This document shows, piece after piece, positions 1,250-4,397 of a stretch of DNA of 35,928 bases. Positions within the stretch are counted from its first letter, which is position 1; each line of letters starts with the position of its first letter. The translations under genes and the position numbers were made by a program. This DNA is from a virus: positions 1-35,928 of the IMG/VR virus record IMGVR_UViG_3300014539_000001, one strand, 5' to 3'. The notes below the pieces were generated by a model. It did not search any database. It was not told the DNA's origin and saw only the letters and a program-made list of their open reading frames with translations.

Positions 1250-1279
1250 CATTTTCGGAACTTGAAAGGGGGTGATATA

Positions 1280-1576
1280 ATGCGAAGGATACTAGTAATT
1301 TTGGTAATAACCATAGCGTGCATGTGCTCGATATGCTCGGCGAAAAGTCTGCATAACCTGCAAGATGAGATACCGACAGACAAAGCCCTGCACTTTGCGG
1401 CAGGCTATATAATTTCCGACCAGCTTCAGCGCAATGCTCATTGCTCCGCGTTTGAAGCTTTTTTAATTACAAGTGGTATTGCATGGGCCAAAGAAAAGTG
1501 GGTAGATGACCATGTAGATAATAACGACGCATACGCTACGATGGCAGGTGGTTTGTTTTATCAAATTAAATTTTAA
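1280..1576 (+). CDS. Small exported protein or lipoprotein, YfiM/DUF2279-like.
   Basis: SD GGGGGTGA sits 7 nt before ATG 1280. Signal peptide MRRILVILVITIACMCSICSA. DKALHFAAGYIIS and GIAWAKEKW..D..ATMAGG resemble E. coli YfiM (DKAQHFLASAMLS ... GASKELW ... DVAGATTGY). The C-terminus YQIKF resembles an OMP beta-signal. Confidence 0.55.
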   Translation: MRRILVILVITIACMCSICSAKSLHNLQDEIPTDKALHFAAGYIISDQLQRNAHCSAFEAFLITSGIAWAKEKWVDDHVDNNDAYATMAGGLFYQIKF

Positions 1577-1588
1577 GAAGGTGAATAT

Positions 1589-1876
1589 ATGGCTGATGAA
1601 ACAATTCGTGTGTTATTTACAAAAGTAGACGAACTTACTGTTCAAATGACAAGAGTTGAAACACTTTTAGTAGAAACTGTAATTGCTAATCAAAAAAATA
1701 ACGCAGAGCGTCTTGACCGACACAGTAAAAAAATCGATGTTGCATTTGAGCGTATAAAAGAGCTTGAAAATGATAAAAAGCATATCATTTCTATTAAGAA
1801 CTTAGTTATTGGTTTTATAGGAGTAGTAGCTACCTGTACAAGCATTGTACTAGGTCTTACACAGCTAATGAGGTGA
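1589..1876 (+). CDS. xhlA: XhlA-like membrane protein (lysis-associated): coiled-coil N-terminus and a single C-terminal TM.
   Basis: 95 aa. The N-terminus is heptad-like and the C-terminus is LVIGFIGVVATCTSIVLGLTQLM. Lies just upstream of a small holin-like ORF and the endolysin. Confidence 0.6.
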   Translation: MADETIRVLFTKVDELTVQMTRVETLLVETVIANQKNNAERLDRHSKKIDVAFERIKELENDKKHIISIKNLVIGFIGVVATCTSIVLGLTQLMR

Positions 1877-1880
1877 TTGA

Positions 1881-2054
1881 ATGCAATACGAAAAATTAGA
1901 TATAGTAAATTTAGTAGTCGTTATCGGGCTTGTAATAGCTTTAATAACGGCTATTTTTTATGATAATGCAGAACTATCTACAACAATAAGTGCTGGCTTG
2001 TTGGGTTATCTAGGTGGGCTGGTACGAGTTAATAATAAAGATGTTACAAAATAG
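1881..2054 (+). CDS. Small two-TM holin-like protein (57 aa, below the ORF-track cutoff).
   Basis: My translation: MQYEKLDIVNLVVVIGLVIALITAIFYDNAELSTTISAGLLGYLGGLVRVNNKDVTK. SD AGGTGA precedes the ATG. Located in the lysis cluster. Confidence 0.5.
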   Translation: MQYEKLDIVNLVVVIGLVIALITAIFYDNAELSTTISAGLLGYLGGLVRVNNKDVTK

Positions 2055-2225
2055 GCACTTTTTGTAATGTGTATGCATAACATATTGCAAAAACAGCTAT
2101 TTTTATAAAACCTAGCACATTTCTAAAAGACAAAAACCTATAACCCGCACCGTTAAAGGATTTAATTGGAAGGTAATCGGTAGATTTAAGCTAAATTTTA
2201 GTTTATTTTTGGTTAAATTAAGAAA

Positions 2226-2249
2226 ACTGGTCGAATTCGACCAGTTTAA
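2226..2249. repeat. Perfect 24-bp palindrome AAACTGGTCGAATTCGACCAGTTT between the holin genes and the endolysin.
   Basis: Read directly. There is no U-tract beyond the stem, so it could be a hairpin/attenuator or a protein-binding site. Confidence 0.6.
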
Positions 2250-2267
2250 TAAAAGGAGTGGCAAATA

Positions 2268-2855
2268 ATGAAAGTAATAGATATTTCAGCTTGGCAAACA
2301 GATATTGACTGGCAGGCAGTAAAAGACGCTGGTATTGAAGGCGTGATTATTAAAATAGGTGAAGGTACTAATCTTGATGAAATGTTTTTTGAACACGTAA
2401 ATAATGCTGTAAATTATGGTTTAAAATATGGTGTATATTATTATGCTCATGCAAATTCTATAGATGAAGCAAGACGTGAAGCTTATACAGTAGACCAATG
2501 GCTTAAAACGTATATTCGTGGAGAAAATCCAGCATTAGGTATTTGGTATGACGCCGAAGATAATTCTATGCTTGAAGGTATAAATAACGTAGTTTATCCA
2601 ATAGCAAACTTTATTCATACAATGCGTGAAATAGGTTATAACTATGTAGGATTATACTCTTCTTATAACTGGCTTACTAATGTTATAGACCTTGAACCAT
2701 TACCAAAAGATGTTCCTATTTGGTCAGCCCAATATGGATACCATGAAAATAGTTTTGCTATTGAAAATCCTAATCGTATATGTCGTATTTGGCAATATAC
2801 AGATTGTGAACAAATAGGCGATATGAAGCTTGATTGTAACATTTACTATGAATAA
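2268..2855 (+). CDS. Endolysin, glycoside hydrolase family 25 muramidase.
   Basis: IDISAWQTDIDWQAVKDAGIEGVIIKIGEG...YGVYYYAHA is the GH25 (Cpl-1-type lysozyme) N-terminal signature. Strong SD AAAGGAG. Confidence 0.9.
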   Translation: MKVIDISAWQTDIDWQAVKDAGIEGVIIKIGEGTNLDEMFFEHVNNAVNYGLKYGVYYYAHANSIDEARREAYTVDQWLKTYIRGENPALGIWYDAEDNSMLEGINNVVYPIANFIHTMREIGYNYVGLYSSYNWLTNVIDLEPLPKDVPIWSAQYGYHENSFAIENPNRICRIWQYTDCEQIGDMKLDCNIYYE

Positions 2856-2886
2856 TAGAATAGATAATTTTTATTTAGTATTTAAT

Positions 2887-2948
2887 AAAAGTCCTCCATA
2901 TAATTGTTAATTTTTATTAATTATAAAGCTAACAAATGGAGGTCTTTT
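2887..2948 (+). terminator. Long hairpin plus T-run whose 3-prime arm contains the methyltransferase SD.
   Basis: AAAAG-T-CCTCCAT (2887-2899) pairs with ATGGAGG-T-CTTTT (2936-2948). The ATG is at 2950. It may act as the terminator of the lysis unit and/or mask the SD. Confidence 0.4.
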
Positions 2949-2949
2949 T

Positions 2950-3669
2950 ATGGATAAATTTTTAAATAAAATAATTTTAGGTGATAGTTTAGAAGTATTA
3001 AGACAAATACCAGATAACAGTGTGGATGCTGTTATTACAGATCCACCATATGCTAGTGGTGGGAAAACTACAGGAGAAAAAAGTGCATTACCATCAATAA
3101 AATATGCAAAAAATAAAGTAGTACACAGACCAGATTTTGTAGGTGATACGAAAGACAGCCGTTCCTGGTTACATTGGTGTGTATTATGGATTGGTGAATG
3201 CCATCGAATTTTAAAAGATAATGGTTATTTTTTAATGTTTAGCGATTGGCGACAATTACCAACAGCAACAGATGCAGTACAAATGGCGGATTTAATTTGG
3301 CGTGGTGTTGTAGCATGGGATAAAGGATTATGTGCTAGAGCCCCACATAAAGGCTATTTTAGGCATCAATGCGAGTATATAGTTTGGGGAACTAAGGGAA
3401 AATGTAAAAAAGCAGTCCATGCTGGTCCTTATGCTGGCTGTTTACGATACCAGGTAATGCAAAAGGATAAATTTCATTTAACAGGTAAACCAACGGCTTT
3501 GATGGAAGAACTTGTAAAAATAACTCCTGAAGGAGGTATAATTTTAGACCCATTTGTAGGCAGTGGTACTACTGCAGTAGCAGCTAAAAAACAGAATCGT
3601 AATTTTATTGGAATAGAAAAAACGGAAGTATATTATAATATTGCATTAAATCGTTTAAAGGAGATATAA
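2950..3669 (+). CDS. DNA methyltransferase, N6-adenine/N4-cytosine family (beta class). Orphan: no nuclease partner.
   Basis: Catalytic motif ITDPPY is near the N-terminus and the AdoMet motif DPFVGSGTTAVAA is near the C-terminus, as in PF01555-type enzymes. Confidence 0.9.
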   Translation: MDKFLNKIILGDSLEVLRQIPDNSVDAVITDPPYASGGKTTGEKSALPSIKYAKNKVVHRPDFVGDTKDSRSWLHWCVLWIGECHRILKDNGYFLMFSDWRQLPTATDAVQMADLIWRGVVAWDKGLCARAPHKGYFRHQCEYIVWGTKGKCKKAVHAGPYAGCLRYQVMQKDKFHLTGKPTALMEELVKITPEGGIILDPFVGSGTTAVAAKKQNRNFIGIEKTEVYYNIALNRLKEI

Positions 3670-3671
3670 CT

Positions 3672-3843
3672 ATGAAAATTTTAGTATATTCAAGAAATTT
3701 TTATACAATCTAACTGCCCAAATGAAAGCTTAAAAAATACTTTTAATCGTTTTGCTTTTATGCAAGGCAATCAAGTAATTTATTTTGATGATATTACTGT
3801 ACAAAATAGATGTGAAGCTATTATTACAGAAATAGAAGTTTAA
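3672..3843 (+). pseudogene. Small gene apparently disrupted by a frameshift at a T5 run.
   Basis: Strong SD AAGGAG precedes ATG 3672, but the ORF stops after 13 codons. The +1 frame stays open from 3685 to 3843. Removing one T from 3698-3702 would give a 57-aa ORF. Confidence 0.3.
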
Positions 3844-3854
3844 AGGATATATTT

Positions 3855-4208
3855 ATGTATGGATTATGGGAATTCTTACGGAAAAATGCTAAAAAAATTA
3901 TTATTTTTGGCGGTATTATTCTTCTGTGCTTGTTCATCGGTTTCATGTTCGGCGGAAGAGAAAACGTATCTAGTAACGGAGTCTCAATTAACGACGTTAG
4001 AACAGAACTTAGCAACGCTCAAGACGCAAAATCAGACATTGCAGACACAGCTTCAGATATCGCAGACACAAGTACAGGCATTGCAGAAACAGTCGGAAAT
4101 CTTGCAAACTCAATCGACACAGCTACAGGAGCAAGTAAACACTTTGATGCAATCATTGATGAATGCACAGGAATTATTGAGCAAATACGAAAACAACCAG
4201 CTGAATAA
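3855..4208 (+). CDS. N-terminally TM-anchored helical protein (117 aa). Candidate i-spanin-like partner of a dual-coding pair.
   Basis: SD AAAGGA sits 8 nt upstream. N-terminus KKIIIFGGIILLCLFIGFMFGG, then an Asp/Ala/Thr-rich helical region. Third-codon positions are almost free of G, like the other genes of the AT-rich arm. Confidence 0.5.
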   Translation: MYGLWEFLRKNAKKIIIFGGIILLCLFIGFMFGGRENVSSNGVSINDVRTELSNAQDAKSDIADTASDIADTSTGIAETVGNLANSIDTATGASKHFDAIIDECTGIIEQIRKQPAE

Positions 4209-4335
4209 TGAAGATGATTATATTATTGGTGTAGGTGTTAGTTCTGATAGTTTAGGTATGTATATATCTAAAAATAAAACATGGCTATATCTTGATGAAG
4301 ATACAGCCACGATAGGTTTACAATATAGATTTTAG
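3886..4335 (+). CDS. Exported coiled-coil lipoprotein-like protein with an OMP-type C-terminal beta-signal. It overlaps 3855-4208 in the +1 frame.
   Basis: Signal peptide MLKKLLFLAVLFFCAC, a long Q/L/T heptad region, and C-terminus TATIGLQYRF. The track ORF starts at 3859; ATG 3886 fits a signal peptide better. Confidence 0.6.
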   Translation: MLKKLLFLAVLFFCACSSVSCSAEEKTYLVTESQLTTLEQNLATLKTQNQTLQTQLQISQTQVQALQKQSEILQTQSTQLQEQVNTLMQSLMNAQELLSKYENNQLNNEDDYIIGVGVSSDSLGMYISKNKTWLYLDEDTATIGLQYRF

Positions 4336-4348
4336 TTTTCTTTATGAA

Positions 4349-4397
4349 AATAAGCCCTATTAATAGATAAAATGCTAATAATAGGGCTTATTTTTTT
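4349..4397 (+). terminator. Rho-independent terminator.
   Basis: AAGCCCTATTA (4352-4362) pairs with TAATAGGGCTT (4379-4389), followed by T7. Confidence 0.8.

What the first reader, a model, noticed from the sequence alone, without database searches (positions are those of the whole stretch)
3855..4335. Two long ORFs overlapping almost completely in different frames: a TM-anchored helical protein and a coiled-coil lipoprotein with an OMP beta-signal (spanin-like pair?)
Seen:
- From a shared SD region, frame A (3855-4208) encodes an N-in TM anchor plus a helical domain.
- The +1 frame B (3886-4335) encodes a signal/lipobox-like peptide, a roughly 90-aa heptad coiled coil and a beta-rich end, ...TATIGLQYRF.
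- Both frames stay open for more than 110 codons in AT-rich DNA, which is unlikely by chance.
- By eye, frame A keeps the local habit of avoiding G at third positions across the overlap. Frame B is G3-rich there but reverts to A/T-ending codons after frame A stops. That is the pattern expected for genuine dual coding.

Established: phages of diderm hosts encode i-spanin (TM plus coiled coil) and o-spanin (lipoprotein) genes that are embedded or overlapped in the +1 frame (lambda Rz/Rz1, P2 lysB/lysC).

Inference: this is an atypical, near-total-overlap spanin-like pair, or another envelope-spanning device. The long coiled-coil lipoprotein is unlike classical short Pro-rich o-spanins.
Basis: partly seen in the sequence, partly recalled or inferred. 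Interest (0 to 1): 0.62.

Follow-up and report, generated by a model that had tools for sequence, protein, structure and literature searches.

The report
Two-frame, lipoprotein-free spanin-like lysis pair
The last 480 bases of this Megamonas-type phage's lysis gene cluster are read in two frames from start codons 4 bases apart, giving an inner-membrane-anchored helical rod and an exported coiled coil with an outer-membrane-type beta tail, which is probably how phages of two-membraned Firmicutes break an outer membrane that classical lipoprotein spanins cannot reach.

Summary
Frame A (3855-4208) and frame B (+1; 3859-4335) are both open in all 25 distinct homologous DNA versions, down to 41% identity, and in remote relatives. 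Codon resampling that keeps either protein predicts 6-13 stops in the other frame (P <= 0.0006).

B carries the stronger constraint (dN/dS 0.29). Three things show selection on A: its membrane helix, its C-terminal ECxxII..RKQ motif, and an NTGnATG twin start found in every relative.

The predicted structures are:
- A: a membrane helix followed by one 72-residue helix.
- B: a cleavable leader, a 76-residue coiled coil, and four beta strands ending in an invariant GxxYxF beta-signal.

B is not a lipoprotein. Only 5 of 147 family leaders have a canonical lipobox, and the cleavage sites are of signal peptidase I type. The pair is always the last gene pair of the lysis cassette.

Most relatives carry a hydrophobic helix in place of the beta tail, so the C-terminus is an interchangeable membrane anchor.

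The best reading is a lipoprotein-independent analogue of a two-component spanin, for hosts that lack LolA/LolB. The function is inferred, not shown.

I found no published description. This scan has noted the same kind before on other DNA (Veillonella, Dialister and Megamonas phages).

The parts
3842..3847 (+). Shared Shine-Dalgarno (AAAGGA), 7 nt before A's ATG and 11 nt before B's ATG
   Evidence: Read directly from the sequence. Comparable purine-rich boxes precede the twin start in most homologues, though the box is weak in L004.
3855..3861 (+). Twin start ATGTATG: A starts at 3855 and B at 3859 (+1 frame)
   Evidence: NTGnATG is present in all 25 distinct homologous sequences. ATGAATG is present in the remote type-2 loci. 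L036 has an ATGTG variant.
3855..4208 (+). Frame A, 117 aa. Short basic N-terminus, membrane helix (residues 12-33, 3888-3953), linker, then a single long helix (residues 41-112, 3975-4190). It looks like an i-spanin.
   Evidence: ORF. AlphaFold2 model with pLDDT about 80-87 in the helix. The membrane-helix hydrophobicity (KD 2.3-3.1) exceeds B-preserving codon shuffles, p <= 0.008 in 6 lineages. More than 195 called homologues.
4161..4196 (+). Conserved C-terminal motif of A, ECTGIIEQIRKQ, with Cys104, Ile107 and Arg112 invariant
   Evidence: Invariant across types. B-synonymous diversity drops here to 0.05-0.11, against 0.2-0.4 elsewhere. Some changes are synonymous in A but not in B: ATT to ATC, and CGA to AGA.
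3859..4335 (+). Frame B, 158 aa (alternative internal ATG at 3886). Exported coiled-coil protein with a C-terminal beta tail.
   Evidence: ORF. 29 called homologues. dN/dS is 0.29 in the overlap and 0.38 in the tail. AlphaFold2 model.
3859..3954 (+). B leader (residues 1-32), with a predicted signal peptidase I site ...SCSA|EEKTY
   Evidence: Family-wide the site follows the -3/-1 rule and has no lipobox. Leader helix at residues 4-25.
3958..4020 (+). Conserved mature N-terminal motif of B, EKTYxVTESQLTxLEQNLxxL (E34, T36, Y37, T40, E41, L44, N50, L51 and L54 invariant)
   Evidence: Alignments A1 and A3. The motif YxITExELTxLExNL is kept in about 150 remote representatives.
3979..4206 (+). B coiled-coil rod (residues 41-116), encoded by the same DNA as A's rod
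   Evidence: pLDDT 93-94. Length varies only in whole heptads: all distances are 3 mod 7 in type 1, and 171 of 178 in type 2.
4219..4332 (+). B beta tail: four strands (residues 121-128, 131-138, 141-145, 150-154). The last one, TIGLQYRF (4309-4332), contains the GxxYxF beta-signal at 4315-4332. Lies outside the overlap.
   Evidence: AlphaFold2 strands, pLDDT 64-81. G124, G126, W142, D146, G153 and F158 are invariant. Normal codon periodicity and A/T-ending codons. Most relatives have a hydrophobic helix at the same position.
4346..4395 (+). Intrinsic terminator closing the lysis transcription unit
   Evidence: Hairpin of -23.4 kcal/mol, z = -6.1, followed by a U run.
1262..3669 (+). Upstream lysis cluster: exported 104-aa protein ending GGLFYQIKF (1262-1576), coiled-coil plus C-terminal membrane-helix protein with a weak holin match (1589-1876), 57-aa protein with two hydrophobic segments, holin-like by eye (1881-2054), GH25 endolysin (2268-2855), and a DNA methyltransferase (2950-3669)
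   Evidence: ORFs. Pfam Glyco_hydro_25 at 1.6e-28 and N6_N4_Mtase at 1.7e-36. PHROG endolysin at 3e-37. phrog_689 holin at 3.9e-4.

Best explanation
The locus encodes two envelope proteins from one stretch of DNA. Ribosomes loaded at a single SD choose between two start codons 4 nt apart.

- **Frame A** gives a type II inner-membrane protein: N-terminus in the cytoplasm, one membrane helix, and an 11-nm periplasmic helix that ends in the conserved Cys-containing motif ECxxII..RKQ.
- **Frame B** gives a Sec-exported protein cleaved by signal peptidase I. It has a conserved N-terminal tip (EKTYxITExxLxxLExNL), an 11-nm heptad coiled coil, and a C-terminal four-strand beta tail with a BAM-type beta-signal. 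As an oligomer, the tail anchors B in the outer membrane.

Shown here: the dual coding, the predicted anatomy, the conserved position as the last genes of the lysis cassette, and the absence of any lipoprotein candidate.

Inferred: A and B together bridge the periplasm, most simply with A's C-terminal tip meeting B's N-terminal tip. Once the endolysin has removed the peptidoglycan, they collapse or zipper and so disrupt or fuse the outer membrane. In this reading the pair is the functional equivalent of a two-component spanin.

The outer-membrane subunit is beta-anchored rather than lipid-anchored. That fits a host class (Negativicutes) in which no LolA/LolB pathway for sending lipoproteins to the outer membrane has been found. 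Because both rods are read from the same DNA, every 21-nt indel changes both by exactly one heptad, which keeps them matched in length.
For: **Dual coding**
- Both frames are open in all relatives.
- Resampling gives P <= 0.0006 and P <= 0.04 in remote loci.
- The twin start is universal.
- A's membrane helix is not a by-product of B's leader.
- A's C-terminal motif suppresses B-synonymous variation and shows A-synonymous changes.
- Both frames have depressed synonymous-codon fit in the overlap, whereas B's tail is normal.

**Anatomy**
- AlphaFold2 models of A and B.
- Heptad-quantised rod length.
- Invariant G153...F158 at B's C-terminus.

**Position**
- In L026 the order is coiled-coil plus membrane-helix protein, holin-like ORF, endolysin, pair. 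In the others the pair follows the endolysin after one to three intervening ORFs, always including a small one of 69-82 aa.
- Remote relatives sit after GH25 or M15 endolysins and Phage_holin_4_1.
- In the window the pair is followed directly by the operon terminator.

**Anchor swap**
- About 125 of 150 representatives carry a short hydrophobic helix where this protein has the beta tail. The C-terminus is therefore a membrane anchor.

**No classical alternative**
- No lipobox ORF exists in the window.

**Host**
- Homologues of A at 67-75% identity are named as Megamonas funiformis proteins.
- No LolA or LolB was found in any Negativicutes genome (PMC5007114).
- A weak PHROG match of B to Rz-like spanin phrog_214, E = 2.4e-4.
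Against: - No experiment or expression data.
- No significant sequence or fold match to any known spanin, YadA-type anchor or other family.
- Over the whole overlap A is no better conserved than the non-coding third frame: amino-acid identity 0.55 against 0.54, and A's dN/dS is 1.76. Constraint on A is therefore local (membrane helix, C-terminal motif, openness) rather than global.
- The four strands are short (5-8 residues in the model, pLDDT 64-81), and only a monomer could be modelled.
- If the tail works like a trimeric-autotransporter anchor, the coiled coil would be on the cell surface rather than in the periplasm.
- In most relatives both proteins appear anchored by alpha-helices, which does not obviously reach the outer membrane. 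I could not verify the hosts of those relatives myself.
- In the window a methyltransferase and a broken small ORF lie between the endolysin and the pair.
Confidence: 0.6

Rival explanations
1. Both proteins are made, but they act at the inner membrane as accessory lysis or timing factors, such as partners of the holin or membrane-lesion enhancers like XhlA-type proteins. They are not an outer-membrane disruptor.
For: - Most relatives (type 2) have B anchored by a C-terminal hydrophobic helix, so both partners would sit in the cytoplasmic membrane.
- The lysis cluster already contains other small membrane proteins.
- I did not verify the hosts of type 2.
Against: - The window's B has a beta tail with an invariant BAM-type signal, not a helix. 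Such a tail has no use in the inner membrane.
- The pair occupies the last position of the cassette, as spanins do.
- No other outer-membrane-disruption candidate is present.
- Earlier notes of this scan, untested here, place the relatives in Veillonella and Dialister, which are also two-membraned.
Confidence: 0.15
2. B is a lysogenic-conversion gene: a miniature trimeric-autotransporter-like surface fibre (adhesin or superinfection-exclusion protein) whose rod passes through its own barrel. A is an unrelated small membrane protein overprinted on it.
For: - The architecture (leader, coiled coil, four C-terminal strands ending in Phe) is that of a trimeric-autotransporter anchor.
- The gene lies at the end of a transcription unit next to a non-lysis gene, the methyltransferase, where morons often sit.
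Against: - No YadA_anchor Pfam match, even at E <= 10 on the C-terminal 60 residues of five variants.
- No structural match.
- There is no own promoter above chance, and the pair shares the lysis operon terminator.
- Synteny with endolysins of three different types.
- Relatives with a helical C-terminal anchor must keep the rod in the periplasm.
- The universal co-encoding with A under a twin start argues for a joint function.
Confidence: 0.1
3. Only B is a functional protein. Frame A is translated or kept open for a reason unrelated to its product, for example to tune B's translation through competition at the twin start.
For: - B shows ordinary coding periodicity and dN/dS of 0.29 in the overlap.
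- A's overall amino-acid conservation equals that of the non-coding third frame, and its dN/dS is 1.76.
Against: - A's hydrophobic helix exceeds what B's leader imposes.
- The ECxxII..R motif is invariant from 34% to 52% GC relatives.
- B-synonymous sites are frozen there, and A-synonymous double changes (CGA to AGA) occur.
- A's first and second codon positions have normal gene composition.
- A mere decoy ORF would not need 110-130 stop-free codons.
Confidence: 0.08
4. The locus is a single gene broken by a sequencing error, or is read through by programmed frameshifting.
For: Four predicted proteins join parts of the two frames. P0157 has A's end fused to B's tail. P0255, P0287 and P0291 have B's start fused to A's end.
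Against: - The two chimeras whose contigs I read (P0291, P0287) lie on scaffolds with one indel that also orphans the remaining pieces.
- 25 + 9 independent loci keep two complete ORFs with their own starts, leaders and stops.
Confidence: 0.02

Closest known systems
Two-component spanins: lambda Rz/Rz1 (embedded) and P2 LysB/LysC (overlapped); survey by Kongari et al. 2018, PMC6139136
   Same: - Last genes of the lysis cassette of a phage with a two-membraned host.
- One subunit is a type II inner-membrane protein with a helical periplasmic domain and a conserved periplasmic Cys.
- The second subunit is encoded in the +1 frame of the first and runs past its stop, which is formally the 'overlapped' class.
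- Gene callers usually annotate only one of the two, as the survey describes.
   Different: - The outer-membrane candidate has no lipobox and no lipoylated Cys. It is 126 residues when mature, longer than its partner, and is a long coiled coil with a beta-signal tail rather than a short Pro-rich lipoprotein.
- The overlap is near-total. It begins 4 nt after the partner's start, with one shared SD.
- No sequence homology. The best match is phrog_214 at E = 2.4e-4, over leader plus coil only.
Unimolecular spanin, T1 gp11
   Same: A single exported chain with one membrane-targeting signal at each end. The type-2 relatives of B (leader plus C-terminal hydrophobic helix) have the same gross layout, and they sit at the same cassette position.
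   Different: - gp11 needs an N-terminal outer-membrane lipoprotein signal. B and its relatives have signal peptidase I sites.
- B always comes with the co-encoded partner A.
- The window's B ends in beta strands, not a membrane helix.
Trimeric autotransporter membrane anchor (YadA_anchor, PF03895)
   Same: A coiled coil followed directly by four C-terminal beta strands ending in an aromatic residue. It would give a 12-stranded barrel as a trimer, inserted by BAM.
   Different: - No HMM or fold match.
- The strands are shorter.
- The rod is expected to stay in the periplasm, since relatives are anchored there by a helix.
- The gene is a phage lysis-cassette gene of 158 codons.
Dual-start motifs of phage lysis genes (lambda S105/S107)
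   Same: Two start codons a few nucleotides apart behind one ribosome-binding region set the ratio of two lysis proteins.
   Different: Here the two starts are in different frames, so they yield two unrelated proteins rather than a holin and its antiholin.

Membership tests
Two-component spanin (Rz/Rz1 type) | Encoded in the lysis cassette of a phage that infects a host with an outer membrane | tested here: met
   The pair follows the holin-like genes and the GH25 endolysin and ends at the operon terminator. The position is the same in all relatives. The host is inferred from homologues named Megamonas funiformis. That Megamonas, a Negativicute, has two membranes is established knowledge.
Two-component spanin (Rz/Rz1 type) | i-spanin: N-terminal membrane helix (N-in) with a helical periplasmic domain | tested here: met
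   Prediction only. Frame A has a membrane helix at residues 12-33 flanked by KNAKK and GGRE, and a helix at 41-112.
Two-component spanin (Rz/Rz1 type) | o-spanin: outer-membrane lipoprotein with a lipobox and a lipoylated Cys | tested here: not met
   No lipobox in B or in any other ORF in the window. The family leaders have signal peptidase I sites, with a lipobox in only 5 of 147.
Two-component spanin (Rz/Rz1 type) | o-spanin gene embedded in, or overlapping, the +1 frame of the i-spanin gene, or adjacent to it | tested here: met
   B is +1 relative to A and extends 127 nt beyond A's stop. It is atypical in starting 4 nt after A's start.
Two-component spanin (Rz/Rz1 type) | Periplasmic Cys residues for intermolecular disulfides | tested here: inconclusive
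   A has one invariant periplasmic Cys, C104. Mature B in the window has none, by direct reading of the sequence.
Two-component spanin (Rz/Rz1 type) | Sequence homology to a described spanin family | tested here: not met
   Only weak coiled-coil-level PHROG matches: phrog_214 at 2.4e-4 and phrog_739 at 0.05-0.14. Nothing in Pfam or NCBIfam.
Two-component spanin (Rz/Rz1 type) | Required for outer-membrane disruption in the last step of lysis | not testable with these tools
   This needs genetics in a lysogen or a reconstituted cassette.
Unimolecular spanin (T1 gp11 type) | N-terminal outer-membrane lipoprotein signal plus a C-terminal membrane helix in one chain | tested here: not met
   B has no lipobox and ends in beta strands.
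Trimeric autotransporter anchor (YadA_anchor PF03895) | Match to the family profile or fold | tested here: not met
   No Pfam hit at E <= 10 on the C-terminal 60 residues of five variants. No Foldseek match in PDB with E below 0.3.
BAM-dependent outer-membrane beta proteins | C-terminal beta-signal (polar-x-G-x-x-hydrophobic-x-aromatic at the very end) and amphipathic beta strands | tested here: met
   The window's B ends in T-I-G-L-Q-Y-R-F. G153 and F158 are invariant in 33 sequences. Four strands are predicted. Actual insertion by BAM was not tested.

The most novel reading that the evidence does not exclude
This is a new class of spanin for two-membraned Firmicutes. The outer-membrane subunit is delivered by Sec and BAM as a beta-anchored coiled coil instead of by Lol as a lipoprotein. 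The two rods are encoded by the same DNA from a twin start, so they are forced to stay equal in length, heptad by heptad. They zipper tip-to-tip, A's ECxxII..RKQ end onto B's EKTYxITE end, into an antiparallel bundle that pulls the inner and outer membranes together, much like a SNARE or a viral fusion hairpin. The relatives with an Ala/Gly-rich C-terminal helix would be the same machine using a fusion-peptide-like insert in place of the barrel.
Probability: 0.45. Interest if true: 0.85.

Novelty: new variant of a known kind. Interest (0 to 1): 0.77.

Why it matters
**The open question.** Every described spanin needs an outer-membrane lipoprotein signal (PMC6139136). No LolA or LolB has been found in Negativicutes (PMC5007114), so how their phages get through the outer membrane is unknown. 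I found no paper that addresses it.

**What this locus offers.** It gives a concrete, testable candidate with defined parts: two starts, two anchors, two conserved tips and one invariant Cys.

**As a case of overlapping genes.** About 350 nt encode two long helical rods in two frames, maintained from 34% to 52% GC. The design ties the lengths of the two products together.

**Practical consequences.**
- Gene callers report only one of the two frames. A was called more than 195 times and B 29 times. Gut-phage annotations therefore systematically miss one protein.
- A family of beta-signal-bearing phage proteins could be a useful probe of BAM function in two-membraned Firmicutes.

Tried and rejected
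**Searches that found nothing**
- tblastn of A, B and three remote relatives against 50,697 deposited phage genomes: no match. Against PLSDB plasmids, by DNA and by protein: no match.
- Pfam, PHROGs and NCBIfam: only sub-threshold coiled-coil noise.
- PDB profile search: generic coiled coils only.
- Foldseek of the B model against PDB and BFVD: nothing below E = 0.03. Membership of the trimeric-autotransporter family is rejected; only the resemblance remains.

**Readings rejected**
- B as a lipoprotein.
- A single gene split by an error. The chimeric ORFs P0157, P0255, P0287 and P0291 looked at first like natural fusions of the two frames. The two contigs I read (for P0291 and P0287) each carry one indel that breaks the normal arrangement.

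**Steps that failed**
- Host identification for the relatives with a helix anchor. No organism names in cluster look-ups. A tail-protein search gave only distant Lysinibacillus phage hits. The one genome-contig scan found a single MAG contig.
- The search for related loci with the divergent alignment A5 failed for lack of a conserved block.
- Only monomers could be folded, so the A-B complex and the oligomeric barrel remain untested.
Full report
**1. What is in the window**

The window is a virus record of 35,928 bases. Between 1262 and 4395 lies one rightward gene cluster, made up of:

- an exported 104-aa protein ending GGLFYQIKF;
- a coiled-coil protein with a C-terminal membrane helix (weak match to holin phrog_689);
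- a 57-aa protein with two hydrophobic segments;
- a GH25 endolysin (Pfam 1.6e-28, PHROG endolysin 3e-37);
- an N6/N4 DNA methyltransferase;
- a short broken ORF;
- the flagged stretch.

A strong hairpin with a U run closes the cluster at 4346-4395 (-23.4 kcal/mol, z = -6.1).

In the flagged stretch, frame A runs 3855-4208 (117 aa). The +1 frame B is open to 4335.

**2. Is the double open frame more than chance?**

I collected 27 homologous viral loci with a profile of B, plus L004 and L005. Together with the window these give 25 distinct DNA versions, ranging from 96% down to 41% identity in B.

- Both frames are open in every one. The third frame is closed, with open runs of 2-44 codons.
- I resampled synonymous codons with the phage's own usage while keeping the B protein. 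This predicts 5.8-11.5 stops in frame A. Keeping the A protein predicts 7.2-13.3 stops in frame B.
- The probability of an open frame was at most 0.0006 in each of nine lineages, from 5,000 resamplings each.
- The same test on three remote loci of different base composition gave P from 0.04 to below 0.0002.

- In the overlap, B's third positions are G 0.38 and T 0.13. After A's stop they are T 0.57 and G 0.07.
- B's synonymous-codon fit is 0.00 in the overlap against 0.51 in the tail. A's is 0.07. Ordinary genes of the window score 0.09-0.38.
- A's first and second positions have normal gene composition.

**3. Which frame is under selection?**

Substitution patterns show that B dominates.

| Measure | Value |
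|---|---|
| Pairwise diversity, B position 1 | 0.21 |
| Pairwise diversity, B position 2 (= A position 3) | 0.20 |
| Pairwise diversity, B position 3 (= A position 1) | 0.32 |
| Nei-Gojobori dN/dS, B in the overlap | 0.29 |
| dN/dS, B in its tail | 0.38 |
| dN/dS, A | 1.76 |
| Amino-acid identity, A | 0.55 |
| Amino-acid identity, non-coding third frame | 0.54 |

Taken alone, these figures would suggest that A is a shadow of B. Four further results show that it is not.

- **Openness.** This is the stop-avoidance result of section 2.
- **Membrane helix.** A's N-terminal hydrophobic helix (Kyte-Doolittle 2.3-3.1 over 19 residues) is more hydrophobic than B's leader would impose. It exceeds B-preserving shuffles with p <= 0.008 in six lineages. 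Conversely, the odd Cys/Ser/Phe/Trp-rich make-up of B's leader is what frame A's need for T at its second codon positions would produce.
- **C-terminal motif.** B-synonymous diversity falls from 0.2-0.4 to 0.05-0.11 exactly over A's motif ECxxII..RKQ. In the most distant lineage there are changes that alter B but are silent in A: ATT to ATC for Ile, and CGA to AGA for Arg.
- **Deep conservation.** The motif, with Cys104, Ile107 and Arg112 invariant, survives in relatives of 42-52% GC whose B proteins are only remotely similar.

Selection on A is therefore real, but it is local rather than spread over the whole protein.

**4. The twin start**

All 25 versions have NTGnATG. A starts at the first codon (ATG, or TTG in one lineage) and B at the ATG 4 nt later, behind one purine-rich box. 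Remote relatives have ATGAATG or an ATGTG overlap.

A is then overlapped over its whole length except its first four bases.

**5. Anatomy of the products**

AlphaFold2 with family alignments gave the following.

- **A:** a membrane helix at residues 12-33, a short low-confidence linker, and one helix at residues 41-112 with pLDDT about 80-87.
- **B:** a leader helix at 4-25, one helix at 41-116 with pLDDT 93-94, and four strands at 121-128, 131-138, 141-145 and 150-154 with pLDDT 64-81.

B's C-terminus reads T-I-G-L-Q-Y-R-F. G153 and F158 are invariant in 33 sequences, as are G124, G126, W142 and D146. The pattern polar-x-G-x-x-hydrophobic-x-aromatic at the very end is the beta-signal of BAM/SAM substrates (established knowledge). 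The strands alternate hydrophobic with small or polar residues.

The distance between B's N-terminal motif and its C-terminal YE motif takes only the values 52, 59, 66, 73 and 80. In the wider family, 171 of 178 sequences fall in the same class modulo 7. The rod is therefore one continuous coiled coil whose phase matters. Each 21-nt indel also changes A by one heptad.

**6. B is not a lipoprotein**

- No ORF in the window combines a basic N-terminus, a hydrophobic core and even a relaxed lipobox.
- Among 147 family members with the YxIT(E) motif, only 5 have a canonical lipobox and 63 have no Cys within nine residues of the site.
- Residue -1 is Ala in 112 of the 143 predicted sites. Residue -3 is C, S, A or V.

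This is a signal peptidase I site. The often-conserved Cys is simply a small -3 residue.

**7. The wider family and the anchor swap**

A profile search of 1.84 billion representative proteins found 362 relatives at E <= 0.001.

- About a dozen share the beta tail, for example P0154, P0165, P0200 and P0244.
- About 125 of the best 150 instead end in a basic stretch (..QRN) followed by a short Ala/Gly-rich hydrophobic helix.
- Both kinds sit last in lysis cassettes. Their neighbours are Phage_holin_4_1 with a GH25 endolysin, or with a Peptidase_M15_3 and a further 107-aa ORF in between.
- Both kinds carry the overlapping A frame with a membrane helix, an ..ELD.. segment and the ECQxII..VR motif.

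The C-terminus of B is therefore an exchangeable membrane anchor, and the two-frame design is old.

I could not identify the hosts of the helix-tail relatives. Earlier notes of this scan name Veillonella and Dialister. I treat that as an untested lead.

**8. Mechanism proposed**

Shown: two proteins are under selection, with the predicted topologies above, at the spanin position, in a phage whose close relatives lie in Megamonas genomes.

Established: Negativicutes have an outer membrane, and no LolA or LolB was found in them (PMC5007114). All described spanins depend on an outer-membrane lipoprotein signal (PMC6139136).

Inferred:
- A is the inner-membrane subunit.
- B is exported, cleaved, and anchored in the outer membrane by its beta tail as a dimer or trimer, giving 8 or 12 strands.
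- The two 11-nm rods bridge the periplasm. A's conserved C-terminal tip and B's conserved N-terminal tip are the only strongly conserved soluble segments, and geometrically they face each other.
- After peptidoglycan removal the rods collapse and breach or fuse the outer membrane.

I put 0.6 on this reading.

**9. Rivals**

- An inner-membrane accessory role: 0.15.
- A surface fibre or moron: 0.10.
- B alone functional, with A as a translational device: 0.08.
- An error or a frameshifted single gene: 0.02.

For the last rival, four chimeric predicted proteins turned up. The two whose contigs I read each trace to a single indel in a metagenome scaffold. Evidence for and against each rival is in the fields above.

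**10. Comparison and novelty**

By layout and position the pair works like a two-component spanin of the overlapped class. It fails the defining lipoprotein feature and has no homology to any spanin family, so I do not file it as a member.

The resemblance to trimeric-autotransporter anchors is architectural only.

No match exists in deposited phage or plasmid records. I found no paper on spanins in Negativicutes phages.

This scan has met the same kind of locus before in other genomes, including Megamonas phages. Those notes agree with what I tested here and did not set my scores.

**11. Limits**

- Only monomer models were possible.
- The host of this particular phage is inferred from the names of homologues.
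- Function is inferred throughout.

Noticed in passing
window 3672-3843: The small ORF just upstream of the pair is broken in the window: 13 codons, then a frame change. Relatives carry an intact 69-82-aa gene at the same place, for example L009 2692-2904, L010 2328-2537 and L011 2693-2941. This conserved small protein of unknown function usually precedes the pair but is absent in L026.
   Followed up: partly
window 1262-1576: The first gene of the lysis cluster encodes an exported 104-aa protein ending ...GGLFYQIKF, a second OMP-like C-terminus in the same operon. A homologue is seen at L010 2-283. It has no family match in Pfam, PHROGs or NCBIfam. It may be another part of the outer-membrane step.
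   Followed up: partly
L033 3979-4432, L037 5979-6432, L043-L048: A very common gut or rumen prophage family (one B protein was seen in 367 blocks of the collection) carries the same two-frame pair at about 51% GC. Its B ends in a hydrophobic helix (..QRNIAYVIAAAAVYFAVRKT) instead of beta strands. The pair lies directly after Phage_holin_4_1 and GH25 and before serine recombinases. The host was not identified.
   Followed up: partly
L049 2994-3460; L050 220-647: These metagenome scaffolds each carry one indel in the middle of the overlap. The result is a called protein that starts as B and ends as A, with the other halves orphaned. They could be assembly errors or decaying copies. Either way, gene catalogues contain chimeric proteins from this locus type.
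   Followed up: yes
window 4280-4311: A 14-pair inverted repeat lies inside the coding region of B's third and fourth strands (CATGGCTATATCTT..AAGATACAGCCACG). The terminator scan scores it on the minus strand, with a T run. I did not check whether it is conserved or functional.
   Followed up: no
alignments A1/A3; proteins P0001-P0029: B's beta tail occurs in a few discrete sequence types (..GLQYRF, ..GWQIKF, ..GYKFKF, ..GIKYKF(YL)). These are shuffled relative to the leader and rod types, which suggests modular recombination within the gene.
   Followed up: no
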